A DNA stretch of 64,000 nucleotides from Verrucomicrobiales bacterium (GTDB lineage: Bacteria; Verrucomicrobiota; Verrucomicrobiia; Methylacidiphilales; JAAUTS01). The number at the start of each line of letters is the position of its first letter. Within the stretch, counting starts at the first letter, position 1. Location: positions 6,448 through 70,447 of the forward strand of contig JAISDC010000267.1 in NCBI GenBank assembly GCA_031265105.1. The letters run 5' to 3'. The notes below the pieces were generated by a model. The model saw only the letters and a list, made by a program, of their open reading frames with translations. It was not told the origin of the DNA and searched no databases. A program made the translations under genes and the position numbers. Positions 1 to 64,000 of the stretch are shown in pieces.

Positions 1-2
1 AG

Positions 3-1661
3 TCACCGGCAGCGCCGGCGCCCACCCCCACCCACCGGCCGCCGCTCACGCCCGCCAAACCCGCCGATGCGCGACTGGAACCCGCGGCGGAAACGCTGTT
101 GCCGGAAAGCAATCTCGCCCCGGAACAGTTGCTCACGCTGGAGAATGATTTTTTCCGCGTCATCGCCACCACCCACGGCGGCGGCATCAAGCGCGTCGAG
201 TTGAAAAAGCACCGGTTGACCGGCGACCAGCCGGTGGTGCTCAACCGCGCCGCGCCGCTGCCGGTGTTCAACATCGCGGGCTGGACGGCCAACGCCAACC
301 TGATCGGCTACCAGGTCGCCGACCATGACGCCGTCAGCGTGACCTTCACCCGCGAGTTGCAGCCGGGCATCACGCTGACGCGCAAGTTCACCATCAGCGA
401 CGACTACAGCCTGGCCCTGGAGCAAACCGTCACCAACGCCACGGCGGAAATCAAGGTGTTGCCGCCGTACCGGCTTAGCCTCGGCACGGTCACCGCGTTG
501 CGCCCGGAGAACGGCACGGCGGAAGATCGCTACGTCACGCTGTCCTGGTACACCACCGCCGGCAGTTACGGCGGCGGGCAGCTCGGGCAATTCAGCGACT
601 TCGCGCCGCTGGGCTTCAAACTGTGGTCGGGCAAACAGTTGATAGACAGCGGCGATGCCGCGATTCGCTGGGCAACGATGAAGTCGCAGTTCTTCGCCAT
701 GATTGTTGACTGCCACGGGTTCGACGCCCGGCAGGTGACCGGCGCGCGCCAGTACTTCCCCGAACTCCGCGCCGAACCCAACACCGCCGTGCCGACGGGC
801 ATTGTCGGCGACCTCGCCATCAGCGGCCTGACCGTCAATCCCAACACCAGCGTGGCGCAACAATTCTCGCTGTACGCCGGCCCGAAGGAAAACTCCCGCC
901 TGCAACTGCTGCCGGACGACCAGGCCCGCGTCATGGAATTCGGCTGGTTCGGCATCATCAGCCGCGCGCTGCTGTGGCTGATGAATTGCATCCACGATTT
1001 TGTGCCCAACTACGGCGTGGCGATTGTCTGCGTGACCATCATCCTGCGCGCGATTCTGTGGTGGCCGCAGTCCGCCGCCAACCGCTCCATGAAACGGATG
1101 CAGGCGGTCGCGCCGCTGATGAAGGAAATGCAGGAAAAATTCAAGGGCCAGCCGGAAAAACTCAACCCGGAGATGTTGAAAATTTACAAGGAATACGGCG
1201 TCAACCCGGTCGGCGGCTGCCTGCCAATGCTGATTCAGTTCCCGATTTTCATCGGCTTCTACGGGATGCTGCAAAGCTCCATCGAACTGCGGCACGAGCA
1301 TTTCCTATGGATCAAAGACCTGTCGCAGCCGGACACCGTGTTCCGCCTCGCGCTGGGCGGCGCCTTCTCGCTGCCGCTGAACCCGATGCCGCTGATCATG
1401 ACCGCGACGATGTATCTCTCCATGCGCATCACCCCGCAGCCGCAGGGCGTGGACAATCCGATGGTGAAAATGATGCGCTTCATGCCGCTGTTTTTCCTGT
1501 TGTTCTGCTACAATTTCAGCTCGGCCTTGTCTCTGTACTGGACGGCGCAAAATATTCTCTCCATTATCCAGATGCGTTACAATTTGAAACAGGTCGCGCC
1601 CACGCTGGAAGCCATGAAAGCCCAGGCCCAGGCGCGCAAAAAGCGGCTGCACAAGCGCTGA
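3..1661 (+). CDS. yidC: Membrane protein insertase YidC (5' partial; the frame is open back to nt 3, so the true start is probably upstream of the window)
   Basis: ORF 99..1661 has a periplasmic N-domain followed by a YidC/Oxa1 core (RAILWWP, MQAVAPLMKEMQEKFKG, GVNPVGGCLPMLIQFPIFIGFY, WIKDLSQPD). It is followed by jag, the conserved pairing. Confidence 0.9.
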   Translation, partial: SPAAPAPTPTHRPPLTPAKPADARLEPAAETLLPESNLAPEQLLTLENDFFRVIATTHGGGIKRVELKKHRLTGDQPVVLNRAAPLPVFNIAGWTANANLIGYQVADHDAVSVTFTRELQPGITLTRKFTISDDYSLALEQTVTNATAEIKVLPPYRLSLGTVTALRPENGTAEDRYVTLSWYTTAGSYGGGQLGQFSDFAPLGFKLWSGKQLIDSGDAAIRWATMKSQFFAMIVDCHGFDARQVTGARQYFPELRAEPNTAVPTGIVGDLAISGLTVNPNTSVAQQFSLYAGPKENSRLQLLPDDQARVMEFGWFGIISRALLWLMNCIHDFVPNYGVAIVCVTIILRAILWWPQSAANRSMKRMQAVAPLMKEMQEKFKGQPEKLNPEMLKIYKEYGVNPVGGCLPMLIQFPIFIGFYGMLQSSIELRHEHFLWIKDLSQPDTVFRLALGGAFSLPLNPMPLIMTATMYLSMRITPQPQGVDNPMVKMMRFMPLFFLLFCYNFSSALSLYWTAQNILSIIQMRYNLKQVAPTLEAMKAQAQARKKRLHKR

Positions 1662-1680
1662 CGGTGACAGGCATTGAGTT

Positions 1681-2139
1681 ATGGCATCGGGTTATTCGCC
1701 AAAGGAAACGCTGGAACTGATTCTGGGGCATCTCGGCTTTGTGTTTGAGGTGCGCGAGGAACAGCACCCGACCGGCCTGACCCTGCACATCTTCACCGGC
1801 GAACCCGGTCGCCTGATCGGCAAGAACGGTCGGACGCTGGACGATTTGCAATACCTGCTGAACCGCATCCTGGCCAACGAGGAAGACGAGCCGCAGCGGG
1901 TGACCGTGGACGTCGAGCATTACCGCGAGTGTCAGCAGGCCGATTTGCTGAAAAAAATCACCGCGCTCGCGGCGCAAGTCCTGGCCACCGGCGAGGCGGT
2001 GACGCTGCCGCCGATGAATTCCTTTGACCGCCGCACCGTGCATCACCATTTCGCCAACGACCCGCTGATCATGAGCGTCAGCGAGACCACCGACGCCCGG
2101 CTGAAAAGCATCACGCTCCAGCGCCGACCAGCGGCTTAA
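1681..2139 (+). CDS. jag: Jag/KhpB-like RNA-binding protein (KH + R3H domains)
   Basis: 152-aa ORF 20 nt after yidC. It has a KH-like segment (GRLIGKNGRTLDDLQYLLNRI) and an R3H-like segment (MNSFDRRTVHHHF). Confidence 0.8.
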   Translation: MASGYSPKETLELILGHLGFVFEVREEQHPTGLTLHIFTGEPGRLIGKNGRTLDDLQYLLNRILANEEDEPQRVTVDVEHYRECQQADLLKKITALAAQVLATGEAVTLPPMNSFDRRTVHHHFANDPLIMSVSETTDARLKSITLQRRPAA

Positions 2140-2154
2140 CGCCAAGGGTTAGGA

Positions 2155-2222
2155 TTTTTTACCGGGAGATCATGGAGAGCGTTTTTTGGATTAGCTCTCC
2201 ATGAACTCCATGGTCTCTCTGT
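2155..2222. repeat. REP-like hairpin, family F (GGAGATCATGGAGAGC / GCTCTCCATGAACTCC)
   Basis: Imperfect inverted repeat between the convergent jag and autotransporter genes. A related copy in opposite orientation lies at 35567..35622. Confidence 0.7.
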
Positions 2223-2227
2223 AACAA

Positions 2228-10449: not shown

Positions 10450-10476
10450 CGCTGACGGTGAAACTCATCGTCAGCG
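10450..10476 (+). terminator. Hairpin formed by an inverted pair of the abundant motif (CGCTGACG-11 nt-CGTCAGCG)
   Basis: 8-bp stem located 29 nt after the Abi-like stop codon and preceded by an A-run. No strong T-tract follows, so terminator function is tentative. Confidence 0.35.
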
Positions 10477-18219: not shown

Positions 18220-21200
18220 TTAATTGGCATTTGGAGTTTGGCATTTGGAATTTTCCCCGCCGGGAAGACTCGCCGCCGCCAATTCCTCCCTTGCGCTGTG
18301 GATGAGGAAATGCAGCCGGTTGAAAATATTCACCTCACTCACGCCCGGGTCGAAGTCCAGGCACAGCAAATTCAGGCGCGGATACAAATCGCGCAAACGG
18401 CGCTCAATACCCTTGGCGACCAGTTGATTGGCGATGCAGCCGAAGGGTTGCACGCTGACGGCGTGGTGGATGCCGCGTTCGGCGAGGGCGGACAACTCGG
18501 CGGGGATGAGCCAGCCCTCGCCGTATTGCGCGGCGGGGCTGACGAGGCGCGTCGCGGCGGCGTGACCGTCAGCGAGATTTTCCAGCGGTTGCTGATAACG
18601 AAACCCGGCGGCGGCGCGGGTGAATTTTTCGCGGTACAACTCCAGCACTGTTCGCAGCGCGGGGTCTAGCAAATCGCTGACGGTGAGGCGGGACAGGTGC
18701 TGCTCACGGTTGCTGCGGCGGTTGAAAAATTCCTGCAGGAAAAAATCCGCCAGCGGCGGCACGACCGGCTCCACGCCTTGCGCGATGAGCCACTCGACCA
18801 GGTGCCGGTTGCCGGCGGCGTTGTGCTTGACGTAAATCTCGCCGACCACGCCGACGCGCGGGCGCGGCGCTGACGATGGCGTGACGGCGTTGAACTCGCG
18901 CGCGGCGGCGCGCAGCAAGGCGGGCAACGCGGCGGCGTCCCGTCGCCGCACCCGCGCCACCCCGTCGGCGAGATACCGGTCGCGCACCCGCGCGGCGGCG
19001 CCGGGCGCGGTCTCGCGCGGCGCGGCGGCGTGATACATTGACGCGAGACTGTCAGCGTAAAACAGCGCGGCGACGGCGAGCCGGCGGCGCCCGCGCCAAC
19101 GCAGGCGAAAACCGGGCTGCGCGTTGCGCACCGCGCCGGCGGCGGTGCCGATGGCGACCACCGGCACGTCGGCGAAACCGGCGGCGCTGACGGCGCGGCG
19201 GATGAGCGCGGCGTAAGCGGTGGCGCGGCATTGCCCGCCGGTCTGCGTGATGGCGAGGGCGACCTGGTCGCGCCGGTGGCGGCCCGACTCGAGCGCGCGG
19301 ATGAAATCGCCCGCCACCAGCGTCGCCGGATAACACACCTCATTGTTGGCGAACCGCAAGCCGCGCTCGGCGGACGCGGCGTCGGGCGGCGGCAGCGTGA
19401 CGGCGCGGTGCCCCAGCAACTCCAGCAACGGCGCGATGAACGGCGAGTGGCACGCGGAGAAAAACGGCACCAGCAGCGCGCGGTCACGGTCAGCGGCGGT
19501 GTATAATTCCCCTTCCGTGAAGGGGTGGCGGCGCGCGCCGACGGGGTAGTTCAGCGTTTTGCGCTGCGTCCCCTCTAACGCTGAACTACCCCGTCCGCTG
19601 CGCGGCCACCCCTTCGCGGAAGGGGAATTGCCCAAGCCGCAATCACGCGCGGCTTCCAATGACCTTAGCGGAGCGGAACCATTATTATCCGCCGACGGTG
19701 AGGAAAAATTCACCGCCGCTGACGGTGCCACTCGCCGCGCGAGGCTCTCAATCAGCGAGCGCGCGCGCAACCGCAACGCGCCGGGCGTTTGCATATCGTC
19801 CACCTTCAAAACCGTGTGACTCTTGCCCGCGCGCCGCAACCGGTCGCCGACCGAGTCCGTGAGAAACGCGTCCGGCCCGCAACCGAACGACGTGAGTTGC
19901 ACCAACTGCACCTGCGGCGGCGCGGCGGCCACCCACACGGCGGCCTGGCGCAAGCGGTTGGGATACGACCAGCGACCGGCGGCGGGCGCGCCGCCCCGCG
20001 CGACATCCTCGCTGACCACATCGGCGCCGAGCGCGCACAACAACTCGGCGGCGCGGTGCTGTATCAGCGGGTCGGCGTGATACGGCCGCCCCGCGAGCAC
20101 CAGCAGCGGGCGCGAACCGTCATTGCCGGCGACGATGGCGCGCGCGTGCTCCGCCGTCGCCCTGACAAATTCATCCTGCGCGGCGAGCGCTTGCGCGAAG
20201 GCTCGGGCAAAAATCCTCGCGCTAACGTTGAGCGTGCCGACCAAATACTCGCGGCAGGATTTTCGCAACAACCCGACATCGCCGAACGTCAGCACCGGCG
20301 CGTCCAGCGGCACGCCGTGACGGTCGGCGGGATTGATGGCGCTGCGGATGACGTCGGCGTAGCCGCTGACGATGGGGCAGTTGTACGCGCCGTCCCGCTC
20401 GCGCACGGCGAACGGCATCAGGATGCGGTCCACGTCGCGCGCGAGCAAATCGCGGACGTGCCCGTGCGCGAGCTTGGCGGGGAAACAAATGTTGTCCGCC
20501 ATGACGCTCGCCGCGCCGCTCTCCGCCAGCGCGGGCGTGGAGGGCGCGGAGAGCGTGACGCCGCACCCGCCGGCGGTGAGCAGCGTGTGCCAGAACGGAA
20601 AATTCTCGTAGCAACCGAGCGCGCGCGGGATGCCGATGTTCGGTCGCTGACGGTCACGCTCACCGTCAGCGGCGGCGCGGTCGAACAGCAGTTGCAGTTT
20701 GCGCGGGAAAAAATTCGCGCCGCGCCGCCGCCGCTGGCCGCTGTTGGTGAAAATTTTCTCGCACTTGTTGCCGGAACAAAACGCGCCGCCGCCGGCGAAC
20801 CGGCGCAGCGTCACGCGGCAATGATTGTCGCAACCGGGACACACGCGCTCCCCGGCGGTCGAGTTCACCGGCAGCGTCAGTGCCGCCAGTGGGCGCGGCG
20901 GCGCGGTCACCGTCAGCGCGCGCCACGCCGCGCCGTAAGCGCCCATCAGCTCCGGCAGCGGCGCGATGGCGATGGGTTTCCCTAACAACCGCTCCAGCGC
21001 CCGCGCCACGGCGTGATTCCGCATGACGCCGCCCTGCACGACCACGCGCGGGCCGAGTTCGTCCGCGTGTTTGAGCTTGAGCACTTTGTACAAGCAATTT
21101 TTCGCCACCGCGTAGGCCAGGCCGGCGGCGAGGTCGGCGGGCGCGGCGTTCTCGCGCAACGCCTGCCGCACCCTGGAATTCATGAACACCGTGCAGCGCG

Positions 21201-23404: not shown

Positions 23405-23432
23405 AAATGTCAGAAAAATAAACCGGGCCAAG

Positions 23433-36786: not shown

Positions 36787-37029
36787 GTGTGTTGTTTCTA
36801 AGTAGTTCTTTATAGAGAGATAAAAAAAAGTAGCAATAAGCTTGTCAATAAGTCACGAAAAATCCTGCAAGTTTTTTATTATAAGCGGGTTTGCGTGGAA
36901 AACAGGCGGTGAAAAATTCGGGGGCAACGACGGTTAGCGGGGCGAAGTGGCGGGATTACCGGGGTTATTGGCCAGACTTGCATGGGTTATTCGGCACTTG
37001 TTGGTAACGCGGGCGGGCGCTGCCGGTGA
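36787..37029. other. dnaA-dnaN spacer with an unusually AT-rich stretch (36797-36890): candidate oriC/DUE, or simply the dnaN promoter region
   Basis: The AT-rich run TCTAAGTAGTTCTTTATAGAGAGATAAAAAAAAGTAGCAATAAGCTTGTCAATAAG stands out in a GC-rich genome. Only 7/9 DnaA-box-like sites are present (TGTCAATAA, CGTGGAAAA). Confidence 0.3.
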
Positions 37030-38403: not shown

Positions 38404-38528
38404 GTCGAAGGCTATAGATTAGAAACCGCTGAAATCCCGCGGCAAGTACAAAAGCGCAAAATTAACCAAACCCGCGCGCCACACCGTCAGCGGCTGACCG
38501 ACGGGCTGGCGCCCGGCGCGCGAACCGG

Positions 38529-43200: not shown

Positions 43201-43267
43201 ACTGCGCGCTGACGATGAGTCGGTTTCGCGATTCTTCGGTGATTATGCCGGTTGAATTACCAATCTT

Positions 43268-43367
43268 ATTTTGTGACTCATCTATGCGATGCAACGATAT
43301 TTGTGACTCAAAAAATCGTATCTATGAGACACAAGGTAGCTTGTATCGCACAGATGAGTCACAAAAT
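43268..43367. repeat. 100-bp unit bounded by 16-bp perfect inverted repeats (ATTTTGTGACTCATCT / AGATGAGTCACAAAAT) with a third TTTGTGACTCA copy inside
   Basis: Arms at 43268-43283 and 43352-43367, with an internal copy at 43310-43320. The right arm overlaps the Fic stop codon. Confidence 0.8.
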
Positions 43368-44486
43368 AAATTCTTTTCCTTCGGCTATGTTCAAAAGCTC
43401 CTTAAATGCGTAAATACCTGACTGTCTGCCTCTTCCTTCGCGAACAGTGGCCAGGATTTGCTTTCCACGCATCAAATTAAGTATGCGGGTCGCGGTTGGT
43501 TTGGGTATTCCTGAGTGTTTAGGATTAGTAAAATGTGAAGCCGAAAAAATAGGTGTCTTAAAAATAAAATCAACCGCACGGATGGCATGTTGTGAGTGGG
43601 TAAAATCAGGAGATTCCGCTTTTAGCCGGTGGTAAAGGGATAAAATGGTTCGTGCCTTACGTTCATTTTCCTCAGCCTGTTGGATGATGCCTTGCAGAAA
43701 AAAGGCACACCAGCCAGTCCAGTCGTTATCGCGGGAAACCGCTCGTAACCGTTCTTGATATTCTTCACGATTAGCTTCCAAGTAGCCGCTCATATAAAAA
43801 TCCGGGCTGGAAAGCAGTTTGTGTTGCAGTAAAAACAATGGGAGTAACATCCTGCCCAAGCGCCCGTTGCCGTCCTGAAACGGATGTAAAGCCTCAAACT
43901 CCACATGCAAAACGGCAAGCTGAATGAGTTTGTCCGGTTCTTTCTCGCTACCGAAATATTTTTCCCATAAATCCATTCCCGATTGCAGATGAGCAAGGTC
44001 AATGGGCATAAAACTTGCCGCTTGGATGGAACAACCGCGAGGACCAATCCAATTTTGGTCGGCACGATATTGTCCCGGGGTTTTGTCCTGTCCTCTCACA
44101 CCGCGCATCAGCAAAGCGTGGGCCGAGCGCAGAATCTGCTGTGAAAAAGGGCGTTGTTTCAGTTCACCCGCGCAAGCTTGCATGGCTTTGCGGTAATTCA
44201 ATACCTCCTCGACATCATCACGCTTGGCTTGGGAAAACAACTCGGGTTGCCCACCGGCTTCCACTTCCAACACTTCGCTCATGGTGACATGTGTGTCCTC
44301 GATTTTGGAAGACAAAACGGCTTCCTGCGTGGTCATGGGGGCCAACAAAACATGGGCATTGGGAATTGCCGAGAGCAAGCCTTCGTAACGCGCCAGCCCC
44401 GCGTTCGCCGGTCCAATCAGCGGGATGAGTTTGTCCCAATCCAGACTGGGAGGTGGAAACTTTCCTTGGTGGTATTGAACTGGCAT
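43359..44486 (-). CDS. Fic family protein (AMPylase-type, Fic_N + Fic + C-terminal wHTH)
   Basis: 375 aa with the catalytic motif HPFQDGNGRLGR. The N-terminal SSKIED corresponds to the autoinhibitory (S/T)xxxE(G/N) helix with D in place of G/N. Confidence 0.9.
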   Translation of the reverse strand: MPVQYHQGKFPPPSLDWDKLIPLIGPANAGLARYEGLLSAIPNAHVLLAPMTTQEAVLSSKIEDTHVTMSEVLEVEAGGQPELFSQAKRDDVEEVLNYRKAMQACAGELKQRPFSQQILRSAHALLMRGVRGQDKTPGQYRADQNWIGPRGCSIQAASFMPIDLAHLQSGMDLWEKYFGSEKEPDKLIQLAVLHVEFEALHPFQDGNGRLGRMLLPLFLLQHKLLSSPDFYMSGYLEANREEYQERLRAVSRDNDWTGWCAFFLQGIIQQAEENERKARTILSLYHRLKAESPDFTHSQHAIRAVDFIFKTPIFSASHFTNPKHSGIPKPTATRILNLMRGKQILATVREGRGRQSGIYAFKELLNIAEGKEFIL

Positions 44487-44649
44487 AACTTGAAATTGTA
44501 ACAGGGGTTTGCAAAAAAGTCTAACCAGTAGGTCTTGCTCAGCGATTCCCGTTGAAGACCGCCCCCTGTTTCCATTGTCAGCGGCAGCGAAGGCTCAACC
44601 CGTTGACGCGCGGGGCTTCACCTCACCGGCTCCAGCACCAACGAAGTAT

Positions 44650-44904
44650 TCATATCCGGCGGCCGGCGTTAATCAAATCCTTGGTAGTTTCGCCTTTGGG
44701 CAGTGGTTTGATAGTTGCGCGTAACGCAAACAACCGTTCCATTACTTCGTGGATGCCCATCTTTTCTTCGGGCTGCGGGATGGGCGTGACTTTGGCGAAA
44801 GGTTTGCTGCGGCGGGAGATGATGACTTCCCGGCCTTTGGCGACTTGCCGCGACAACGCCGACCAACGCGCCTCGCTGACACTGACTGTTTTCAATGCGG
44901 CCAT
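44650..44904 (-). CDS. Phd/YefM-family type II antitoxin (no intact partner toxin)
   Basis: MAALKTVSVSEARWSALSRQVAKGREVIISRRSKPFAKVTPI. The ATG at 44904 is preferred over the GTG at 44907. Confidence 0.65.
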   Translation of the reverse strand: MAALKTVSVSEARWSALSRQVAKGREVIISRRSKPFAKVTPIPQPEEKMGIHEVMERLFALRATIKPLPKGETTKDLINAGRRI

Positions 44905-44989
44905 CACTATAAGCTACGTAATTCACGCTGACGGTCAAATGTTGTCGAAAAACAAACCTCCACGAACTCCATGTTCTCCCTGTAAAAAT

Positions 44990-51816: not shown

Positions 51817-52662
51817 ATGGCACCGGAAACCGCAATCAAGTTGTTTGAAACGAAAAAAGTCCGCACCGTGTGGGACGAGGAACGGGAAAAATGGTTTTTT
51901 TCCGTCGTGGATGTCATCGAGGCGCTGACGGCGAGCGGGCGTCCCCGTAAATATTGGGACGACTTGAAACGCAAGCTGCAAGCCGAAGGAAGTGAGTTGT
52001 CCGAAAAAATCGGACAACTGAAAATGCCCGCTGCCGATGACAAATTTTACAAAACTGATGTCGCTGACGTTGAGCAAGTGTTCCGGTTGATTCAATCCAT
52101 CCCGTCACCAAAAGCGGAGCCGTTCAAGCTGTGGCTGGCGCAAGTGGCGAAGGAGCGGCTCGACCAGTTGCAAGACCCGGAGTTATCCATCGAGCAAGCC
52201 ATGACCGATTACCGGCGACTGGGTTATTCCGAAAGCTGGATCAATCAACGCCTCAAAAGCATCGAAATCCGCAAGGAGTTGACCGATGAATGGAAGCGCC
52301 ACGGCTTGCAGGAAGGCGGGCCATTCGCCTCGCTGACCGACATCATCTACCAAACTTGGGCGGGCAAAACCGCGAAGGAATACAAGCAATTCAAAGGCTT
52401 GAAAAAGGAAAGTTTGCGCGACAATATGACCAACAAGGAATTGGTAATCAATATGTTGGCGGAATTATCCACCAAGGAAATCTCCGCCGTCTCCACGCCC
52501 GCGACGATGGCTGAACATGAAAACATCGCCCGGCGCGGCGGCAACGTCGCCCGTGAAGCGCGGTTGAAACTTGAAGCCGAGACTGGCAAAAAAGTGGTCA
52601 CACCGCTGAATGCGAAACATTTGTTGGGCGTTAAAAATGAATCACGCAAATTAACCCGCTGA
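51817..52662 (+). CDS. BRO-N domain protein (DinD/antirepressor-like)
   Basis: A start at MAPETAIKLFE is preferred. The Bro-N pattern is FETKKVRTVWDEEREKWFFSVVDVIEAL. The stop TGA lies inside a motif variant. Confidence 0.65.
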   Translation: MAPETAIKLFETKKVRTVWDEEREKWFFSVVDVIEALTASGRPRKYWDDLKRKLQAEGSELSEKIGQLKMPAADDKFYKTDVADVEQVFRLIQSIPSPKAEPFKLWLAQVAKERLDQLQDPELSIEQAMTDYRRLGYSESWINQRLKSIEIRKELTDEWKRHGLQEGGPFASLTDIIYQTWAGKTAKEYKQFKGLKKESLRDNMTNKELVINMLAELSTKEISAVSTPATMAEHENIARRGGNVAREARLKLEAETGKKVVTPLNAKHLLGVKNESRKLTR

Positions 52663-52683
52663 CCGTGACGGTCACCATCAGCG
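52657..52683 (+). terminator. Imperfect hairpin built from two motif variants (CGCTGACCGTGAC / GTCACCATCAGCG)
   Basis: It overlaps the BRO-N gene stop codon. The stem is 6+5 bp with an internal mismatch. Function is uncertain. Confidence 0.3.
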
Positions 52684-52726
52684 ATAACATTTTGACATCA
52701 CTACGAAGTGATGTTATTTTTACAGC

Positions 52727-53023: not shown

Positions 53024-53036
53024 CCCGCGAGTTGTT

Positions 53037-55087: not shown

Positions 55088-55720
55088 ATGAACAAACCCA
55101 GCGTCCTGTTAATCAACGGCAGCCCGCACCGCAATGGCTGCACTTACACCGCGCTGACCGAGGTCGCCGGACCACTCCACGCGCAAAGAATTAACACCCG
55201 CATTTTTCAACTCGGCAAAAAACCCGTGCGTGGTTGCACCGCGTGCCGCTATTGCAAAACGCACGGGCATTGCGCGTTCAACGACGACACCGTGAATGAA
55301 GTCATCGCGCTCATCACCGCCGCTGACGGGCTGGTCATCGGCTCGCCCGTGCATTACGCCTCGCCGAACGGGGCGTTGCTGGCATTGCTCGACCGCGTGT
55401 TCTACGCCGGCGGCGGTCACTTCGCCTACAAACCCGCCGCCGCCGTGGTCAGTTGCCGGCGCGGGGGCGGCACCGCGTCGTTCGATGTGTTGAACAAATA
55501 CTTCACCATCTCGCAAATGCCCGTCGTCTCCTCGCAATACTGGAACATCGTCCACGGCAACACGCCCGACGAAGTGCGCCAGGACGCCGAGGGCTTGCAA
55601 ATCATGCGGACGCTGGGTCGCAACATGGCCTGGCTCATCAAATCCCTCGCCGCCGCGCGTGACACCGTCCCGCTGCCGGTGACCGAACCGGTCGCCCAAC
55701 GCACCAATTTCATCCGCTGA
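55088..55720 (+). CDS. Flavodoxin-like FMN reductase (iron-sulfur flavoprotein type)
   Basis: 210 aa with LLINGSPHRNGCT, a Cys cluster (CTACRYCKTHGHC) and GSPVHYASPNG. Confidence 0.8.
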   Translation: MNKPSVLLINGSPHRNGCTYTALTEVAGPLHAQRINTRIFQLGKKPVRGCTACRYCKTHGHCAFNDDTVNEVIALITAADGLVIGSPVHYASPNGALLALLDRVFYAGGGHFAYKPAAAVVSCRRGGGTASFDVLNKYFTISQMPVVSSQYWNIVHGNTPDEVRQDAEGLQIMRTLGRNMAWLIKSLAAARDTVPLPVTEPVAQRTNFIR

Positions 55721-55785
55721 CGGTGACGGAATTTTTTATTGAAAATTGATCATTGCGGTAATCCGACGTATATATTTCACGGCAT

Positions 55786-59465: not shown

Positions 59466-59538
59466 ACGCTGAAAATCACGTCCTTAACGCTAACGGTGAG
59501 TAAACTGGCTTGCGGGCGATGATAACACCGCGTTAATG

Positions 59539-59805
59539 CTACCGACGCGCGGCGGTCTTTTTGGGCGTCGCGTCGCTTGCTTCAAGTTCGGCAAGGCGTT
59601 TCCGCAACGCGGACAACTCCCGTTGCGGTATCAACGTGAAGGGCATGGTAATCTGCCCGTGTTCCTCGACGTAGTCGATGATTAGTTTGGTGGCGAGCCG
59701 CAGAATGTTGGTGAACGTGATATTGGTTTTACCTTCCACCCAAACCGCCTTTTCCTTCATGGTCTCGCTGACCTTGAAACTGATAGTCTGGTTCTTTTTG
59801 TCCAT
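59539..59805 (-). CDS. Small ribbon-helix-helix-like protein
   Basis: A start at MDKKNQTISFKVSETMKEKA (59805) is preferred. It has a beta-strand plus helices pattern and a basic tail. Confidence 0.4.
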   Translation of the reverse strand: MDKKNQTISFKVSETMKEKAVWVEGKTNITFTNILRLATKLIIDYVEEHGQITMPFTLIPQRELSALRKRLAELEASDATPKKTAARR

Positions 59806-59920
59806 GCTAATATTTAAGCGCGAAATGTTGCCGGCGTAAATACTCTCTATGTTCAGGTGTAGCGTCACCCGTTATGACCAGCTCATCGAGGTATATATGA
59901 AATTTGTGGACGAGGCCTAA

Positions 59921-60134
59921 AAAAATCAAAAGAACTTGCGTAAGTTAGGCGGATAAGATACCATCTCATCCTGTTATCGGCGCAAGCTGGCACTGGCCAC
60001 CAAAAAAACATGGGTGGTTAAGCAAAGGCAAAAAACTGGTAACTCGCTGAAGATGACCGAGATAGCCCATAGAATCGAATCATCGCGCTCACGCGCTCAC
60101 GCGCTCACGCGCTCACGCGCTCACGCGCTCACGC
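59921..60134 (+). repeat. Element E copy 2: ~163-bp conserved module plus (CGCGCTCA)x6.4
   Basis: Inverted homolog of 4937..5180. It lies 371 nt upstream of the low-GC operon starting at 60506. Confidence 0.75.
60084..60134. repeat. 8-bp tandem repeat (CGCGCTCA), 6 full units plus CGC
   Basis: Counted directly. The unit is the same as at 4937..5024 but the copy number differs. Confidence 0.95.
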
Positions 60135-60505
60135 CTGAGCCGGATAGTTTTTGCCAAAAATATTCCTGATACGGTTCAACCGCGTCACTGGACTCCCAAG
60201 TCAGCCTGTTTTGCCCCGATGTCACATGGCATTGGGTTAATACCGCCTGTCGTAAAATCAGCGCCCGACCCAATGGAACATCAGCGTCAGCCTGTTCCAG
60301 GAGCTGTGAACACAAACGAGAACACCAGCATAGTACCGGCAATTCCACTGATAATGGGACAGGAGCTAATAAAGTAACCAAGCCTTGCCCAAGTAACTTT
60401 AGATTTTTTTGAGCATGAAAATTTCAAAGAATGTCACTATCAGCGATGAGTTGTCGCCCTTGGTGATGATTCCTTGGAAAAACAAATAATATAGAAAGGT
60501 AAATT

Positions 60506-61024
60506 ATGAAAGAATCACTAAATAAAATATATGAATCAGAACTCAAGGTTTTTATTATAACACTTATCCAGAGTTCACAACTATTTAGGTCACTTGGAGC
60601 AAAGAGAAAAAAATTATCTGAATTGGCTAAAAAAGAACTGAAAAGAAAATTACTAGATTTCAGTATTGAATTAATAAAAGAAGCTGATAGTGGAACATTG
60701 AAAAATAGTAAAATTCACAAAAAAATAGAAGAGCTGACTAAAATTAACAAATTGATTTCCTTTGGTCGAGCGCAAAAGGCATTGAATATTGTTTTGAAAT
60801 CTTATTGCATCATTACCCGGAAAAAACAGGGAATTTTGCGAGAATTGGATTGCCCTCTTGATAGCAGAACAATGAAACACTGTGGGATTCCTGAAAATAG
60901 ATTACTTGATGTCGAAAAAAATGATTATTTGTGCTATCAGAAAAAATTTGAAGAAGAGGAATTGAGAATATTTGAAGACTATAAAGCTTATAATGAGAAC
61001 AGAATCAATAAATTTATAAAATGA
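60506..61024 (+). CDS. Hypothetical Lys/Glu-rich protein (low GC)
   Basis: 172 aa preceded by AAAGG 8 nt upstream. It contains an FGRAQKALNIVLKSY ... LDCPLDS block that I cannot assign to a named family. Confidence 0.5.
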   Translation: MKESLNKIYESELKVFIITLIQSSQLFRSLGAKRKKLSELAKKELKRKLLDFSIELIKEADSGTLKNSKIHKKIEELTKINKLISFGRAQKALNIVLKSYCIITRKKQGILRELDCPLDSRTMKHCGIPENRLLDVEKNDYLCYQKKFEEEELRIFEDYKAYNENRINKFIK

Positions 61025-61752
61025 TAAAAAATCAAAATTTGTTGCTAACAATGATAGTCATTGTCAGCTGTAAGTCAATATTTATGAAGGCAATATTACT
61101 AATAACCTTACTGGCGGTAACAACTTCATTTGCGGTCGTTCAAACCAAAAACAATGAAATTAAAAAACCTGTCTTGGACAAGAACAAGATATCTACATGG
61201 AGACAAGTGACGCTTGCGGATGGAACGGTTGAGAAGTGGGACACGATTTACTCCATCAAACCATACGGTATCGGTGTTGGTGGGACAAATGGTGTCAAAA
61301 CCATCTATTTCAAGAGCTTACCAGAAAAGCTCCAAAAGGAAATAGGATACAATTCAGCTATTGTGGCCCCTACAATCCCTGACGTCGATATTAAGCCAAT
61401 CAAGTCTTACGATAATGATATTACGCGGCTTGCTGATATTGAAAAGAAGTTAGAGGCGTTGCGGGAAACAAATACCTTGATAGGAATCCGACTTCTGGAA
61501 CTTGGTTCAGGCCGCACCTCTATTGGGGACTCGTATGGCACAACGAGTAATGGGGAGTCGTACGTCATAACGAGTCGTCGTCGCCGTGGTTCTTCCCAGC
61601 CCTTGATGGAGCGTATTGAGGCTCTTGAGAAAGACAAAGAGACGCATGAACTTTTGAATGCTAAAAGGGCGAATGATGAGACTGCAAGGCTATTGTGGTT
61701 TGAGAAAAACAATATCCTAAAACGGAAAGCCAAGCTCGCAGATAACCCCTAA
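61021..61752 (+). CDS. Hypothetical secreted/coiled-coil protein (low GC)
   Basis: 243 aa with an ATGA overlap with the previous gene. The signal-like segment is MKAILLITLLAVTTSFA (alternative start 61084). The C-terminal half is coiled-coil-like. Confidence 0.5.
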   Translation: MIKNQNLLLTMIVIVSCKSIFMKAILLITLLAVTTSFAVVQTKNNEIKKPVLDKNKISTWRQVTLADGTVEKWDTIYSIKPYGIGVGGTNGVKTIYFKSLPEKLQKEIGYNSAIVAPTIPDVDIKPIKSYDNDITRLADIEKKLEALRETNTLIGIRLLELGSGRTSIGDSYGTTSNGESYVITSRRRRGSSQPLMERIEALEKDKETHELLNAKRANDETARLLWFEKNNILKRKAKLADNP

Positions 61753-61873
61753 ACAATGCCAGTATCGGTATCGCTCTTGTTGAGATTTTCTATAAGAGCT
61801 TTGGTAAGAGTAACTTTTACACACGTCAAAGTTTCCAACGAAACCCCACTGCTGGTTGGTCAGTTTATCAAAC

Positions 61874-61972
61874 CATCAGTGTCCATCTGTGTTAATCCGT
61901 GGTTAAAATTTTCAATGCCTTCTGCGCTGGATAAAACACATTCACGCCGACGGATGTCTGGCTGTCAGCGGT
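61874..61972 (+). pseudogene. bioA 5' fragment 1: REP-A half element plus the first ~57 nt of bioA with an ~11-nt deletion
   Basis: It aligns with the reverse complement of 13340..13452. Homology stops at GGCTGTCAGCGG, which also contains the MNT gene stop codon. Confidence 0.75.
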
Positions 61973-62267
61973 GGAAAAAATCCATGCTTTTTTCGTCAAT
62001 GTGTTGGCGCAGATTTTGATTGGTGATTTGGTTGTAAACGACCAAGTCCACTGCCATTGGCAGCGCGTGTTCTTCCAGCGCCACGCGCAGTTTCGCCAGG
62101 TCGCTGATGGTGAGCTGCTCGCCGAACAGGGCGAGGTCAATGTCCGAGGCGGGTTGAAACACGCCCAGAGCGCGCGAGCCGAACAGCACGGCGCGGGTGA
62201 CTCGCGGGTGCGCCGACAACACGCTGACGATGGCGGCGCGCTGGCGTTCTGACAGGCCGTCATTCAT
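61965..62267 (-). CDS. Nucleotidyltransferase-domain protein (MNT-type antitoxin)
   Basis: 100 aa with the motifs LFGSRALG and ASDIDLALFG. It overlaps the HEPN gene by 4 nt. Confidence 0.8.
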   Translation of the reverse strand: MNDGLSERQRAAIVSVLSAHPRVTRAVLFGSRALGVFQPASDIDLALFGEQLTISDLAKLRVALEEHALPMAVDLVVYNQITNQNLRQHIDEKSMDFFHR

Positions 62268-62665
62268 GCCGCCGTCAATGCGTTAAGCCGGTCAACGCAT
62301 CCGTCAAGCAGCGGCGCGTACTTATTCTTAATCAAATTTAGCGCTTGCCGACTGATGGCGTCATCGTAAGTGTGCGTAAATAAATTACGGCTCTCCAGCG
62401 CTTCCAGCCATGTCTCGCCGTCAGTGACCATGCCCGCCTGAAACGCTTGCCGAATGGTCTCGCGTGGGCTGTTGACCTGATAACCGTCGAAGAGCAATTT
62501 GTCGCGTAGCGTCTTCCAACATAGCTCAAACGTGAATTCGTAAGTTTGCACCAGCCCGGCGATTTCCAACTCGCTGTAATTGGTTTGCGCGCAAGCCGCC
62601 ACCAGACGCGCGCGGGCTTTGTTCAAGTTTTCGAGGCGCTGCCGCCAGCGGTCGGGATTTTGCAT
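62264..62665 (-). CDS. HEPN-domain protein, HI0074 family (nucleotidyltransferase substrate-binding protein; toxin of HEPN-MNT pair)
   Basis: The Rx4H motif is ESRNLFTHTYD. The ATG at 62665 is preferred because GGAGA lies 8 nt upstream. The ORF track starts at the GTG at 62680. Confidence 0.8.
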   Translation of the reverse strand: MQNPDRWRQRLENLNKARARLVAACAQTNYSELEIAGLVQTYEFTFELCWKTLRDKLLFDGYQVNSPRETIRQAFQAGMVTDGETWLEALESRNLFTHTYDDAISRQALNLIKNKYAPLLDGCVDRLNALTAA

Positions 62666-62750
62666 GGCATAATTCTCCACATTTCACCGTCAGCGTCAAC
62701 GGCGTGTTTTTCAGATGTTCATGATAGTTGGTTGCGGCTAGATTTTTTGC

Positions 62751-62973
62751 ATGTTTGCCGCGCTGGACAAAAAATATTTGTGGCATCCGTTCACGCCGAC
62801 AGATGCTTGGCTGGCGGCGGATTATGCGCCGACGGTCATTGTCAGCGGGGACGGGTCGTGGTTGTGCGACGACAAGGGGAATAAATATCTCGACGGGAAT
62901 TCTTCCATTTGGACGAATATTCACGGGCATCGCAATGCCACTGTCAGCGGGGTATCACGGGGACACGGTCAGC
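62751..62973 (+). pseudogene. bioA 5' fragment 2: nt 1-~188 of bioA (~94 % identity) joined to 18 nt from bioA codons ~146-151
   Basis: MFAALDKKYLWHPFTPTDAWLAADYAPTVIVSGDGSWLCDDKGNKYLDGNSSIWTNIHGHRNATVSG, followed in another frame by SAGYHGDTV. It is inverted relative to the intact bioA at 12044..13411. Confidence 0.85.
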
Positions 62974-63198
62974 TTTAACGCGCTGATGGAATTGCGGGAA
63001 GATTTGTACAGCTACGCCGGTGTGCTGGAAAGTTTCGAGCGCGCCGGGCGACTGTTCCCGATGGCGGCTCACTAATCCGCCCGCGCGGGTGACCGGCTGC
63101 CGTCACTCGACGAAAGCTGTTCGTCACCCCGTTTTTATCAACTTAAACCCAATATAAAACCTCAACCAAAAGGAACCCCGATGTCCATGCGGCTTATT

Positions 63199-63225
63199 AA
63201 ATTCCCCTTCATGGAAGGGGAATTT
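63199..63225. repeat. REP-B core hairpin (AAATTCCCCTTCATGGAAGGGGAATTT)
   Basis: Perfect palindrome matching the inner part of REP-B units. Confidence 0.7.
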
Positions 63226-63363
63226 GCTCACGCCGGAGAATTAGTCATGAGTGAAGAATTAAAATCTACCGCTAATCGCGGGCTTGGTCTTTACTCCGCC
63301 TCGCAGCGTCTCCGCGCGAACATAAAAACGCTTCGCGCCTTCGCGTCTTCGTGGCCGGAGTTT

Positions 63364-64000
63364 TCAGAGCAACTCCCGCGCCACCGCCGCCGAGTACTTG
63401 CTGGCGATGCCTGCCACGAAGGCGGGGAAATCCACCGGCGACTGCTCATCGGCCGCGTCGCTGATGGTGCGGATGACGGTGCACGGGACGCCGTGCTCGT
63501 GGCACACTTGCGCGACCGCCGCGCCCTCCATCTCCACGCACAACACCGACGGCAACGCCAGCGTCAGCGCCACCTTGTCGGCGTGGCGGGAGAAAAATTG
63601 GTCGCCGCTGGCGATGTCGCCGACGTGCAGGCGCGGTTTGGTGATGCCGAACTTTCGCAACTCACCATCAGCGGCCAGCCGCCCGCTGCCGATGAGTTTC
63701 TCAACCGCGTCAATCGCGCGCCGCAACCGCGCGGGCGGGGTCTCCAGCCAGGTCCGGCCCAGTAACGGGATTTCGTAGCGCGGGACGAGCGGGCGCGCGT
63801 CGAGGTCGTGTTGCACCAGGCGCCGCGCCAGCACGATGTCGCCGATGGCCAGCGCGTCGCTGACCGCGCCCGCGACACCGGTGAAAATGATTTCCGTCAC
63901 GCCGAACTCCAGCAGCAGCGTCGCGGCGGTGGCGGCGGCGGCCACCTTGCCCCAGCGCGAAAACACCACCACGACGCGCCGCCCGCCGACGCTGCCGGTG
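63364..64000 (-). CDS. mtnN: 5'-methylthioadenosine/S-adenosylhomocysteine nucleosidase (5' end beyond window)
   Basis: FTGVAGA, GDIASGDQF and CVEMEGAAVAQVC motifs. The reading frame remains open to the window edge. Confidence 0.85.
   Translation of the reverse strand, partial: TGSVGGRRVVVVFSRWGKVAAAATAATLLLEFGVTEIIFTGVAGAVSDALAIGDIVLARRLVQHDLDARPLVPRYEIPLLGRTWLETPPARLRRAIDAVEKLIGSGRLAADGELRKFGITKPRLHVGDIASGDQFFSRHADKVALTLALPSVLCVEMEGAAVAQVCHEHGVPCTVIRTISDAADEQSPVDFPAFVAGIASKYSAAVARELL

What the first reader, a model, noticed from the sequence alone, without database searches (positions are those of the whole stretch)
1..64000. Hyper-abundant dodecamer cGCTGACGGTGAc in both orientations (about one core per 0.8 kb): an uptake-signal- or Chi-like genome signature
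Reading the window by eye I logged roughly 80 exact 8-mer cores, about 40 in each orientation.
- Forward GCTGACGG examples: 1657, 5622, 10451, 16927, 26627, 35647, 55716, 58279.
- Reverse CCGTCAGC examples: 3354, 5842, 6450, 7124, 8276, 23135, 29231, 53578.
- The flanks converge on cGCTGACGGTGAc. Many one-off variants also occur (GCTGACAGTG, GCTGACCGTG, GCTGACGATG).

For a roughly 60-65 % GC sequence I estimate only 2-3 chance occurrences per strand in 64 kb.

The motif sits inside CDSs in several reading frames (..LTV.., ..ADG.., ..TVS.., ..PSA..), so the constraint is on DNA rather than on a peptide. It supplies the TGA stop of yidC (1659), the BRO-N gene (52660), the flavodoxin gene (55718) and the MNT gene (61965-61967, minus strand). 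Inverted pairs form hairpins just past gene ends (10450-10476, 52657-52683) and once inside a CDS (20645-20671).

It looks depleted in low-GC islands (15.29-15.62, 43.4-44.5 and 60.4-61.8 kb). Orientation shows no strong switch across the window. This is how DUS/USS behave in Neisseriaceae and Pasteurellaceae. I am not aware of a described equivalent with this sequence.
Basis: partly seen in the sequence, partly recalled or inferred. Interest (0 to 1): 0.8.

Follow-up and report, generated by a model that had tools for sequence, protein, structure and literature searches.

The report
Uptake-sequence-like 12-mer in Verrucomicrobia genomes
A 12-base DNA word (CGCTGACGGTGA) is scattered through this uncultured Verrucomicrobia chromosome about a hundred times more often than chance, and it behaves like the 'DNA uptake sequences' that let Neisseria and Haemophilus recognise their own DNA, which are known so far only from those two bacterial families.

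Summary
GCTGACGG occurs 81 times (41 +, 40 -) against 3 expected. The 11-mer CGCTGACGGTG occurs 51 times against under 1 expected. The full signal is a graded motif, g-n-CGCTG-ACGG-TG-a, with a near-invariant CGCTG. CGCTG-N4-TG has 307 copies, or 4.8 per kb.

It is a DNA-level signal. It is not a peptide, a codon-usage by-product or a mobile element. It uses three reading frames and survives codon and synonymous shuffles. Its flanks are unrelated. It sits in about 40 different genes.

The window is the dnaA/dnaN/yidC/mnmG region of an uncultured Verrucomicrobiota genome. Orientation shows no skew, so Chi and KOPS are rejected.

Six related genomes carry the same motif at the same density. A nested sister clade has replaced it with a 'dialect', CGCTAAYGRCGA. 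More distant relatives have neither.

- An orthologous terminator hairpin is built from each lineage's own dialect.
- The dialect is absent from a Tn7-like transposon of equal GC content.
- Motif columns are three times more conserved than their surroundings.

Best explanation (about 0.55): an independently evolved DNA uptake sequence system. Uptake itself and the receptor are untested.

The parts
1..64000 (.). Population of motif copies. There are 81 GCTGACGG cores (41 +, 40 -) and 51 exact CGCTGACGGTG. A further 133 copies have one mismatch. The degenerate form CGCTG-N4-TG has 307 copies.
   Evidence: The 8-mer is expected 3.0 times under dinucleotide shuffles. The 11-mer is expected 0.06-0.6 times.
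1656..1667 (+). Exact CGCTGACGGTGA whose TGA is the stop codon of yidC.
10450..10476 (.). Inverted motif pair CGCTGACGGTGA / CATCGTCAGCG. It forms a 12-bp-stem hairpin 29 nt after the stop of the Abi_2 gene.
   Evidence: fold about -25 kcal/mol for the 100-nt context.
20645..20671 (.). Inverted pair CGCTGACGGTC / CACCGTCAGCG inside the BcrAD/CoA-activase CDS.
52657..52683 (.). Inverted pair of one-mismatch copies, CGCTGACCGTG / CACCATCAGCG. The first copy supplies the Bro-N stop codon. Together they form a hairpin at the gene end.
55715..55726 (+). Exact CGCTGACGGTGA whose TGA is the stop codon of the FMN-reductase gene.
38465..38495 (-). Motif plus inverted partial copy (CCGTCGGTCAGC-C-GCTGACGGTG) in the terminator position after the P-II gene, upstream of dnaA. 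The orthologous hairpin in relatives is built from their own dialect.
61960..61970 (-). Degenerate copy (CGCTGACAGCC) that supplies the TGA stop of the nucleotidyltransferase gene.
35692..38403 (-). dnaN and dnaA. They mark the chromosomal origin region and were used as phylogenetic markers. Both are motif-poor: 0 and 1 copies with at most one mismatch.
59489..62101 (.). Motif-free stretch of 2.6 kb over a low-GC island (GC 0.29-0.42 in its ORFs).
43208..44925 (.). Motif-free stretch over the Fic gene (GC 0.49), next to a DDE transposase fragment.

Best explanation
CGCTGACGGTGA is the genomic footprint of sequence-biased DNA uptake. It would be a third, independently evolved analogue of the DUS of Neisseriaceae and the USS of Pasteurellaceae, here in an uncultured Verrucomicrobiota clade.

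Proposed mechanism, all steps inferred:
1. A surface DNA receptor of the competence machinery, most likely a type IV minor pilin, prefers DNA that carries CGCTG-N4-TG. The best-fitting centre is ACGG.
2. Fragments from relatives that carry the motif are imported more often and recombine into the chromosome.
3. Any mutation that improves a match therefore spreads (molecular drive).
4. Copies accumulate wherever protein function tolerates them. That is why there are three cheap reading frames, many near-matches and few copies in highly constrained genes.
5. Because the motif contains TGA, it is reused as a stop codon. Inverted pairs are reused as terminator hairpins.
6. When the receptor's specificity changed in one sub-clade, the genome was rewritten to CGCTAAYGRCGA.

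Shown: the statistics, the DNA-level constraint, the phyletic pattern, the dialect switch and the absence from mobile DNA.
Inferred: uptake bias, the receptor and recombination.
For: 1. **Enrichment.** The 11-mer is over 100-fold enriched. Enrichment declines with mismatch load: 118x, 13x and 2.8x for 0, 1 and 2 mismatches. Bakkali 2007 (PMC1939737) reports the same pattern for DUES.
2. **Orientation.** 41 + against 40 -. There is no switch across dnaA or across the gene-strand switch. Relative to gene strand the split is 37 same against 29 antisense.
3. **DNA-level constraint.**
   - There are 66 copies in CDS. Codon-order shuffling gives 4.3 and synonymous shuffling gives 13.6.
   - 16 of 27 ADG tripeptides are encoded GCTGACGGT, against 0.24 expected from codon usage.
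   - The tripeptides themselves are inflated 3- to 6-fold.
4. **Position-specific constraint.** CGCTG is almost never mismatched, even at synonymous third positions. Positions 6 to 9 vary freely. This resembles the core and periphery of DUS (PMC3630211).
5. **Phylogeny.**
   - The same motif occurs at 3.8-5.3 CGCTGA per kb in the window, in 3 relatives sampled through DnaA (L123, L125, L127) and in 3 MAGs.
   - Outgroups have 0.3-1.1 per kb.
   - A nested clade (L119, L120, L131) has CGCTAAY at 1.2 per kb against about 0.15 expected. CGCTGAC is not enriched there.
6. **Shared terminator.** The orthologous P-II terminator hairpin is made of CGCTAACGACGA pairs in L119 and CGCTAATGGTGG pairs in L131. 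In L127 and the window it is made of CGCTGAC.. pairs.
7. **Mobile DNA.** In L119 the dialect is at 1.56 per kb in core DNA. It has 0 copies in 5.2 kb of a Tn7-like element and 1 copy in 3.3 kb of its cargo, at equal GC content (p=3e-4).
8. **Conservation.** Between the window and L123 (94.4% identical), motif columns differ at 1.8% against 5.7% elsewhere (p=0.002).
9. **Gene ends.** 8 of 52 genes end in CGCTGA, and hairpins lie at gene ends.
10. **Pilus genes.** A motif-bearing relative encodes a minor-pilin operon with GspH/FimT-like, GFTLVE and GFSLVE pilins.
Against: - No uptake or transformation data exist, and the organisms are uncultured.
- No comEC, comEA, dprA, pilQ or ComP-like gene lies in the 64-kb window or in the roughly 150 kb of related loci examined. 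A whole genome could not be searched.
- Only 18% of copies are intergenic, roughly the non-coding share of the window. About half of all DUES lie in predicted terminators in the known families (10.1101/2025.10.24.684340).
- The density of the degenerate form (4.8 per kb) and the 2.6:1 ratio of one-mismatch to perfect copies are higher than in Neisseria.
- Spacing is not regular (CV 1.18).
- Any slow, lineage-specific intracellular drive would leave the same footprints, including absence from recently acquired DNA.
- Natural competence has not been reported for Verrucomicrobiota in the papers searched.
Confidence: 0.55

Rival explanations
1. The motif is maintained or driven inside the cell, without any role in DNA uptake. 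Two examples: thousands of binding sites for an abundant chromosome-organising or self-marking protein, or a sequence-specific repair or gene-conversion bias that converts near-matches into matches. The second would resemble what has been proposed for the HIP1 octamer of cyanobacteria (my own knowledge, not checked in papers here).
For: - Hyper-abundance, equal orientation, occurrence in CDS, lineage-specific change and absence from recently acquired DNA all follow from any lineage-specific drive.
- No competence genes were seen.
- The very high density of the degenerate form, 4.8 per kb, exceeds known uptake sequences.
- A DNA methylase gene lies in one motif-rich MAG locus (L106).
Against: - No known nucleoid protein or repair system produces a 100-fold excess of a non-palindromic 11-mer inside genes at the cost of amino-acid changes.
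- Selection on thousands of individually dispensable sites is weak. That is the classical argument for a drive through recombination.
- Known repair-linked biases involve short, mostly palindromic methylation sites and give enrichment of less than 2-fold.
- The clean dialect replacement, including at a shared terminator, is documented only for uptake sequences (PMC3630211).
Confidence: 0.25
2. The motif's primary role is at gene ends, as a combined stop codon and terminator-hairpin module. On this view the intragenic copies are decayed or incidental.
For: - 8 of 52 genes end in CGCTGA.
- Hairpins lie at 10450, 52657, 55058 and 38482.
- Terminator pairs occur in relatives.
Against: - 81% of cores lie inside CDS, in both orientations and in-frame.
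- Single copies cannot form hairpins.
- Intergenic density (1.5 per kb) is barely above coding density (1.2 per kb).
- Intragenic copies are the better conserved ones.
- In DUS and USS genomes, terminator use is regarded as secondary co-option.
Confidence: 0.07
3. A Chi-like recombination hotspot, or a KOPS/SRS-like polar signal read by RecBCD/AddAB or FtsK.
For: The motif is a short, over-represented, non-palindromic oligomer in an origin-proximal region.
Against: - Orientation is 41:40 overall.
- It is 24:29 left and 17:11 right of dnaA (Fisher p=0.24), and 32:35 against 9:5 around the gene-strand switch (p=0.38).
- Enrichment of 100-fold or more, and 1-5 copies per kb, are far above known Chi or KOPS (my knowledge of E. 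coli Chi, about 1 per 4.5 kb).
Confidence: 0.03
4. A by-product of codon usage, of a repeated peptide or of a dispersed mobile element (MITE or REP).
For: - The encoded tripeptides (ADG, LTV, TVS) are made of common amino acids.
- CTG, ACG, GTG, ACC, GTC and AGC are favoured codons in a genome with GC3 near 0.8.
Against: - Codon-order and synonymous shuffles give 4.3 and 13.6 against 66 observed.
- The ADG frame uses disfavoured GCT and GGT codons.
- Flanks carry no information beyond about 14 nt.
- About 40 unrelated genes are hit.
- Relatives with similar GC content and codon usage lack the motif.
Confidence: 0.01

Closest known systems
DUS (DNA uptake sequence, 5'-ATGCCGTCTGAA-3' and its dialects) of Neisseriaceae, bound by the minor pilin ComP
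   Same: - A 10- to 12-nt non-palindromic word at about 1-2.5 per kb, in both orientations.
- It lies inside genes in preferred frames, and inverted pairs act as terminators.
- It has a functionally critical core plus weaker flanks.
- It has clade-specific dialects congruent with phylogeny.
- It is under-represented in mobile DNA (PMC3630211; 10.1101/2025.10.24.684340).
   Different: - The sequence is different. The reverse complement TCACCGTCAGCG shares only CCGTC.G with AT-DUS, 6 of 12 positions by my own alignment, which is probably chance.
- The phylum is different (Verrucomicrobiota).
- No ComP was identified.
- Only about 18% of copies are intergenic.
- There are many more one-mismatch copies (2.6 per perfect copy, against a 21% increase in K. 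oralis).
- Uptake is untested.
USS (uptake signal sequence, Hin-type AAGTGCGGT and Apl-type ACAAGCGGT) of Pasteurellaceae
   Same: - Copies are mostly intragenic.
- The encoded tripeptides are inflated in the proteome.
- Two sub-clade types differ by a few bases.
- Conservation is graded by position, and mismatched forms are also enriched.
- A molecular-drive explanation applies (PMC1626085; PMC1939737).
   Different: - There are no AT-rich flanking segments.
- The motif is GC-rich and contains a stop codon.
- The phylum is different.
- The receptor is unknown. In Pasteurellaceae the receptor is also only predicted (ComN; 10.1101/2025.06.16.659825, listed).
HIP1 (GCGATCGC) of cyanobacteria
   Same: A hyper-abundant octamer found inside genes in all usable frames. 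It is lineage-specific and has no proven function (my own knowledge).
   Different: HIP1 is a perfect palindrome linked to methyltransferase sites. The motif here is non-palindromic and 11-12 nt long, and it has a polar core.
Chi (GCTGGTGG in E. coli) and KOPS (GGGNAGGG)
   Same: Short, over-represented, non-palindromic chromosomal words.
   Different: Both are strongly co-oriented with replication and only a few-fold enriched. Here there is no skew and the enrichment is 100-fold or more.

Membership tests
DNA uptake enhancing sequences (DUS/USS kind) | Short non-palindromic word, hugely over-represented, at about 1 per kb genome-wide | tested here: met
   81 cores against 3.0 expected, and 51 copies of the 11-mer against under 1 expected. 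That is 1.27 and 0.8 per kb. Similar densities occur in 6 other genomes of the clade. Only 64 kb plus about 100 kb of relatives were sampled, not a whole genome.
DNA uptake enhancing sequences (DUS/USS kind) | Both orientations about equally frequent, with no replichore polarity | tested here: met
   41:40 overall. No switch around dnaA or around the strand switch at 49.6 kb.
DNA uptake enhancing sequences (DUS/USS kind) | Constraint acts on DNA: copies lie in CDS in a biased subset of frames, and the encoded peptides are inflated | tested here: met
   Three frames hold 62 of the 66 CDS copies. Shuffles give 4.3 and 13.6 against 66 observed. The ADG, LTV and TVS tripeptides are 3- to 6-fold enriched.
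DNA uptake enhancing sequences (DUS/USS kind) | Over-representation decays gradually with mismatch load, with a conserved core and weaker periphery | tested here: met
   Enrichment is 118x, 13x and 2.8x for 0, 1 and 2 mismatches. CGCTG is near-invariant and positions 6 to 9 are loose. Compare PMC1939737.
DNA uptake enhancing sequences (DUS/USS kind) | Inverted pairs serve as transcription terminators, with about half of all copies in terminators | tested here: inconclusive
   Hairpins at gene ends exist and 8 of 52 stop codons lie in the motif. However, only 15 of 81 cores are intergenic or at a gene edge. No terminator predictor or transcript data were used.
DNA uptake enhancing sequences (DUS/USS kind) | Clade-specific dialects congruent with phylogeny | tested here: met
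   CGCTGACGGTGA against CGCTAAYGRCGA in a nested clade. The DnaA+DnaN tree has bootstrap support of 83-100%. An orthologous terminator is rewritten in each lineage.
DNA uptake enhancing sequences (DUS/USS kind) | Scarce in recently acquired or mobile DNA | tested here: met
   L119: 20 copies in 12.85 kb of core DNA, against 1 copy in 8.5 kb of a Tn7-like element plus cargo at equal GC content (p=3e-4). The low-GC islands of the window are empty but confounded by composition.
DNA uptake enhancing sequences (DUS/USS kind) | Motif-bearing DNA is preferentially bound and taken up by competent cells | not testable with these tools
   This needs an uptake or transformation competition assay. The organisms are uncultured.
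DNA uptake enhancing sequences (DUS/USS kind) | Genome encodes competence machinery (ComEC, DprA, ComEA, type IV pilus with secretin) and a sequence-specific receptor | not tested
   - None lies in the window or in 30 ORFs of MAG loci.
- A minor-pilin operon lies in relative L127.
Neisseriaceae DUS proper / Pasteurellaceae USS proper | Sequence related to GCCGTCTGAA or AAGTGCGGT, and a host in those families | tested here: not met
   DnaA is 99% identical to a protein that NCBI names as coming from a 'Verrucomicrobiales bacterium' MAG. The motif is unrelated apart from a 6-of-12 chance-level overlap. So this is an analogue, not a member.
Chi / KOPS polar motifs | Strong co-orientation with replication direction (above 70-75%) | tested here: not met
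   51% + overall. The + share is 45% left and 61% right of dnaA, which is not significant.
REP / MITE dispersed repeats | Conserved sequence beyond the core, intergenic location, palindromic unit | tested here: not met
   Information content is about 0 outside 14 nt and 81% of copies are in CDS. Separate REP-like and MITE-like repeats do exist in the window, but they are different sequences.

The most novel reading that the evidence does not exclude
The motif is not an uptake signal. It would instead be the footprint of a so-far undescribed intracellular system that writes or maintains a 12-nt 'self' word throughout the chromosome. Candidates are a sequence-specific gene-conversion or repair drive, or a chromosome-wide protein-binding code. 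Its specificity can switch between sister lineages (CGCTGACGGTGA to CGCTAAYGRCGA), with the whole genome then rewritten.
Probability: 0.25. Interest if true: 0.9.

Novelty: new variant of a known kind. Interest (0 to 1): 0.8.

Why it matters
Sequence-specific DNA uptake has been a two-family curiosity for 40 years, confined to Neisseriaceae and Pasteurellaceae. Both families are Proteobacteria and both are host-associated.

A third, independently evolved system in an uncultured Verrucomicrobiota clade would matter in four ways:
1. It would show that self-biased transformation evolves repeatedly.
2. It would give a natural pair of dialects, with an inferred direction of change, for finding the receptor by co-variation.
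3. It would predict natural competence and a species barrier in organisms known only from metagenomes.
4. It would provide a simple k-mer marker for binning these genomes and for spotting foreign DNA in them.

If the motif is not about uptake, it points to an unknown genome-wide drive. That would be more surprising still.

Tried and rejected
- **Literature search for the sequence.** A full-text search for the 11-mer in either orientation found only incidental matches in unrelated papers.
- **Rfam.** A scan of the window found nothing.
- **Genome-collection scan.** I scanned with the inverted-pair pattern (10+10 nt). Most of the 117 hits were chance matches in GC-rich genomes. Only 8 loci, from 3 Verrucomicrobiales MAGs, were motif-dense.
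- **Metagenome scan.** I used DnaA homologues and their contigs instead.
- **Viral scan.** It returned one conserved hairpin locus in a group of similar-looking viral contigs and no motif-dense contigs. It was uninformative.
- **oriC.** A DnaA-box search did not reveal a clear oriC, and GC skew is weak. The replichore test therefore rests on two landmarks: dnaA and the gene-strand switch.
- **Source environment.** A search for sample or MAG codes in papers found nothing relevant, so the environment is not established.
- **Competence genes.** Pfam scans of about 80 ORFs in the window and related loci found none. They found only a minor-pilin operon in L127.
- **Explanations considered and rejected.** Peptide repeat, codon-usage artefact, MITE/REP, and Chi/KOPS.

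Full report

Yes. Dinucleotide-preserving shuffles give 3.0 +/- 1.8 copies, with a maximum of 9.

Markov expectations of order 0 to 3 are 3.5 to 16 for the 8-mer. For CGCTGACGGTG they are 0.06 to 0.6, against 51 observed. Even an order-5 model, which absorbs much of the motif itself, predicts only 8.

Aligning the 81 copies gives g-n-C-GCTGACGG-T-G-a. Beyond about 14 nt the flanks carry no information, so this is a free-standing oligomer and not part of a longer repeat.

**2. The motif is graded and polar.**

Around CGCTGACGGTG there are 133 one-mismatch copies (10 expected) and 224 two-mismatch copies (81 expected). Enrichment therefore falls from 118x to 13x to 2.8x.

The mismatches are not spread evenly:

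| Positions | Bases | One-mismatch variants |
|---|---|---|
| 1-5 | CGCTG | 8 in total |
| 6-9 | ACGG | 103 |
| 10-11 | TG | 22 |

Anchoring on CGCTG alone gives 700 copies. Of these, 307 have TG exactly four bases later, which is 4.8 CGCTG-N4-TG per kb. In CDS there are 261 such copies, against 24 after codon-order shuffling and 52 after synonymous shuffling.

The near-invariance of G5 and T4 holds even where they are synonymous third positions (CTG in the LTV frame, GCT in the ADG frame, GTC in the TVS frame). The constraint is therefore on the DNA itself.

**3. It is not a peptide or codon artefact.**

With a gene map supported by Pfam, 66 cores lie in CDS and 15 are intergenic or at a gene edge. 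The coding fraction is 0.84.
- In CDS the motif uses three frames: ADG (18), LTV (19) and antisense TVS (25). PSA and RQR have 2 each. The sixth frame contains TGA.
- Shuffling codon order within genes leaves 4.3 +/- 2.0 copies.
- Keeping every protein and shuffling synonymous codons leaves 13.6 +/- 3.6 copies.
- 16 of 27 ADG tripeptides are written GCTGACGGT, using two disfavoured T-ending codons. Codon usage predicts 0.24.
- The three tripeptides are themselves 3- to 6-fold more frequent than amino-acid composition predicts.

So the DNA word has reshaped the proteins.

Copies are missing from dnaN, P-II, thioredoxin and the BBP2 porin. They are also missing from genes with a mobile or defence flavour (Abi_2, Fic) and from two low-GC ORFs.

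**4. Where the window comes from, and the polarity test.**

The window carries yidC, jag/khpB, dnaN, dnaA, P-II and mnmG, so it is the chromosomal origin region. Its DnaA is 99% identical to a protein that NCBI names as coming from a 'Verrucomicrobiales bacterium' MAG. All close homologues that carry a source name are from Verrucomicrobiota MAGs. I could not establish the source environment.

Neither a DnaA-box cluster nor GC skew pins down oriC. Two landmarks are available, and motif orientation is flat across both:
- Around dnaA: 24+/29- on the left and 17+/11- on the right (p=0.24).
- Around the gene-strand switch at 49.6 kb: 32+/35- against 9+/5- (p=0.38).

Chi-like and KOPS-like readings are rejected.

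**5. Relatives: same motif, a dialect, or nothing.**

A scan of one genome per species with an inverted-pair pattern returned mostly chance hits. Eight motif-dense loci came from three Verrucomicrobiales MAGs: Gx481_bin94, Gx481_bin192 and Pc512_bin95. Their genes are ordinary housekeeping genes such as gyrA/B, lpxC-fabZ, hisS, purB, hemH and eutBC.

Loci sampled without reference to the motif, through DnaA homologues, give this pattern:

| Group (DnaA identity to the window) | CGCTGA per kb | CGCTAA per kb |
|---|---|---|
| Window | 5.1 | 0.38 |
| L123 (99%) | 3.9 | 0.08 |
| L125 (78%) | 4.8 | 0.29 |
| L127 (75%) | 4.5 | 0.27 |
| L119 + L131 (85-86%) | 0.75 | 1.34 |
| L129 (84%) | 0.88 | 0.68 |
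| L121 (77%) | 1.03 | 0.09 |
| L130 (76%) | 0.27 | 0.00 |
| L122 (71%) | 1.08 | 0.05 |

- L119, L120 and L131 lack the window's motif. They have their own over-represented word: CGCTAAY occurs 41 times in 33.7 kb against about 5 expected. Its logo is g-c-CGCTAA-Y-G-R-C-G-A, and CGCTGAC is at its chance level there.
- L129 shows the same word only weakly.
- L121, L130 and L122 have neither word.

A DnaA+DnaN tree places all motif-bearing lineages in one clade with 100% bootstrap support. GA-type lineages sit on both sides of its basal split. The AA-type clade is nested next to the window with 83% support. The GA word is therefore ancestral and the AA word is a derived dialect.

**6. Three tests that bear on mechanism.**

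*(a) Orthologous rewriting.* The terminator hairpin just after the P-II gene uses each lineage's own word:
- L119: CCGCTAACGACGA...TCGTCGTTAGCGG.
- L131: CCGCTAATGGTGG...CCGCCATTAGCGG.
- L127: GCCGCTGACGGTCAGCGAC.
- Window: CCGTCGGTCAGC-C-GCTGACGGTG.

*(b) Mobile DNA.* In L119 the dialect is at 1.56 per kb in 12.85 kb of core genes. It has 0 copies in 5.2 kb of a Tn7-like element (TnsA/B-, TniB- and TniQ-like genes) and 1 copy in 3.3 kb of the adjacent RND efflux genes. GC content is 0.535, 0.524 and 0.513 respectively (p=3e-4). This removes the composition confound that affects the window's own low-GC islands.

*(c) Conservation.* The window and L123 are 94.4% identical over 12.2 kb. Columns inside motif copies differ at 1.8% (5 of 275), against 5.7% elsewhere (p=0.002).

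In addition, 8 of 52 window genes end in CGCTGA. Several intergenic copies pair with a degenerate inverted partner.

**7. Interpretation.**

Every sequence-level property that defines the DUS of Neisseriaceae and the USS of Pasteurellaceae is present:
- density near 1 per kb;
- equal orientation;
- a restricted set of frames;
- proteome distortion;
- a mismatch gradient with a critical core;
- use as stop codons and terminators;
- dialects congruent with phylogeny;
- scarcity in mobile DNA.

These properties are described in PMC3630211, PMC1939737 and 10.1101/2025.10.24.684340. The same sources treat such sequences as confined to those two families. My searches found no report for Verrucomicrobia.

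The most economical mechanism is the one accepted for DUS and USS. A surface receptor takes up motif-bearing DNA preferentially. Recombination then fixes better matches, which is molecular drive. The genome follows the receptor when its specificity changes. I give this a probability of about 0.55.

**8. What is not shown.**

- No competence gene or receptor lies in the window or in about 150 kb of related loci. The only relevant find is a minor-pilin operon in L127, with a GspH/FimT-like pilin and two GF[ST]LVE pilins.
- Whole genomes could not be retrieved.
- Only 18% of copies are intergenic, near-matches are unusually abundant, and spacing is irregular (CV 1.18).
- A purely intracellular, lineage-specific drive or binding code would predict the same footprints. 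I keep it at about 0.25.
- A primary terminator or stop-codon role (0.07), Chi/KOPS (0.03) and codon, peptide or MITE artefacts (0.01) are disfavoured by the tests above.

**9. Membership and novelty.**

This is not a member of the DUS or USS families. The sequence differs, the phylum differs and no ComP was found. The reverse complement shares only CCGTC.G with AT-DUS, 6 of 12 positions by my own alignment, which is probably chance.

It works like those families by every computational criterion. I rate it a new variant of a known kind, with high interest. It would be the first uptake-sequence system outside Proteobacteria. It also comes with a built-in dialect pair for finding the receptor.

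**10. Other things seen.**

- Perfect octanucleotide arrays occur upstream of an autotransporter gene and at 60.1 kb.
- There is a REP-like 26-mer family.
- There is a MITE-like inverted-repeat element of about 125 nt, one copy of which lies inside a 1489-aa ORF.

Details are in the list of items noticed in passing.

Noticed in passing
window 4937-5024 and 60084-60134; L017 6574-6790: Perfect octanucleotide tandem arrays. TGAGCGCG x11 lies about 90 nt upstream of the start of the autotransporter gene 2228-4849 (- strand). CGCGCTCA x6.4 lies at 60.1 kb. The first array and its flank are also present in a related MAG locus. It looks like a slipped-strand phase-variation (contingency) repeat.
   Followed up: partly
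window 23980-24005, 26658-26745, 28484-28509, 48461-48541, 49648-49716, 61879-61904: A REP-like 26-mer, AACCACGGATGGACRCNRATGAACAC, has 9 copies against 0 expected. Most are inverted pairs in intergenic DNA. The pair at 48461/48516 forms a stem of about 30 bp whose loop contains a CGCTGACGGTC motif copy.
   Followed up: partly
window 18126-18181, 19505-19629, 23432-23587; L007 4-138 and 5390-5580: An element of about 55 nt (AACGCTGAACTACCCCG...GCCACCCCTTCRCGGAAGGGGAAT) occurs as inverted pairs, giving MITE-like units of 125-155 nt. One unit lies inside the 1489-aa BcrAD/CoA-activase ORF (18220-22689) without breaking the frame. The element is shared with a related MAG.
   Followed up: partly
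window 2228-4849 and 39069-41174 (- strand): Two autotransporter genes with beta-barrel domains lie near the origin. The second is among the most motif-dense genes, at 8.1 degenerate copies per kb.
   Followed up: no
L119 13025-18002: A Tn7-like transposon (TnsA/B-like, TniB and TniQ genes) is inserted immediately downstream of dnaN in the sister lineage, followed by RND/CzcB efflux genes. It is free of the host's dialect motif.
   Followed up: partly
L127 12011-18182: A five-gene operon sits close to dnaN in a motif-bearing relative. It encodes a GspH/FimT-like minor pilin (GFTLVE), a second pilin (GFSLVE), a third protein with a weak N-methylation motif, a 1127-aa protein and a 248-aa protein. 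It is a candidate place to look for a DNA receptor.
   Followed up: partly
L129 (whole locus, 10.2 kb): A different abundant word, CTTGGAGACGCGC / ATCCCCGCCT, occurs 8-12 times against under 0.3 expected. It may be a dispersed or tandem repeat. I did not examine it.
   Followed up: no
window 9750-10421, 43359-44486, 51745-53483, 61965-62680: A scatter of defence or toxin-antitoxin-type genes lies around the origin region: Abi_2, Fic, Bro-N, a PIN gene with a small upstream ORF, and a nucleotidyltransferase with its substrate-binding partner (a HEPN/MNT-like pair). There is also a DDE transposase fragment at 42339-42821.
   Followed up: no
L106 1175-2539: An N6/N4 DNA methylase gene lies in a motif-dense MAG locus. 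It is relevant to the methylation- or repair-linked rival explanation. I did not study it further.
   Followed up: no
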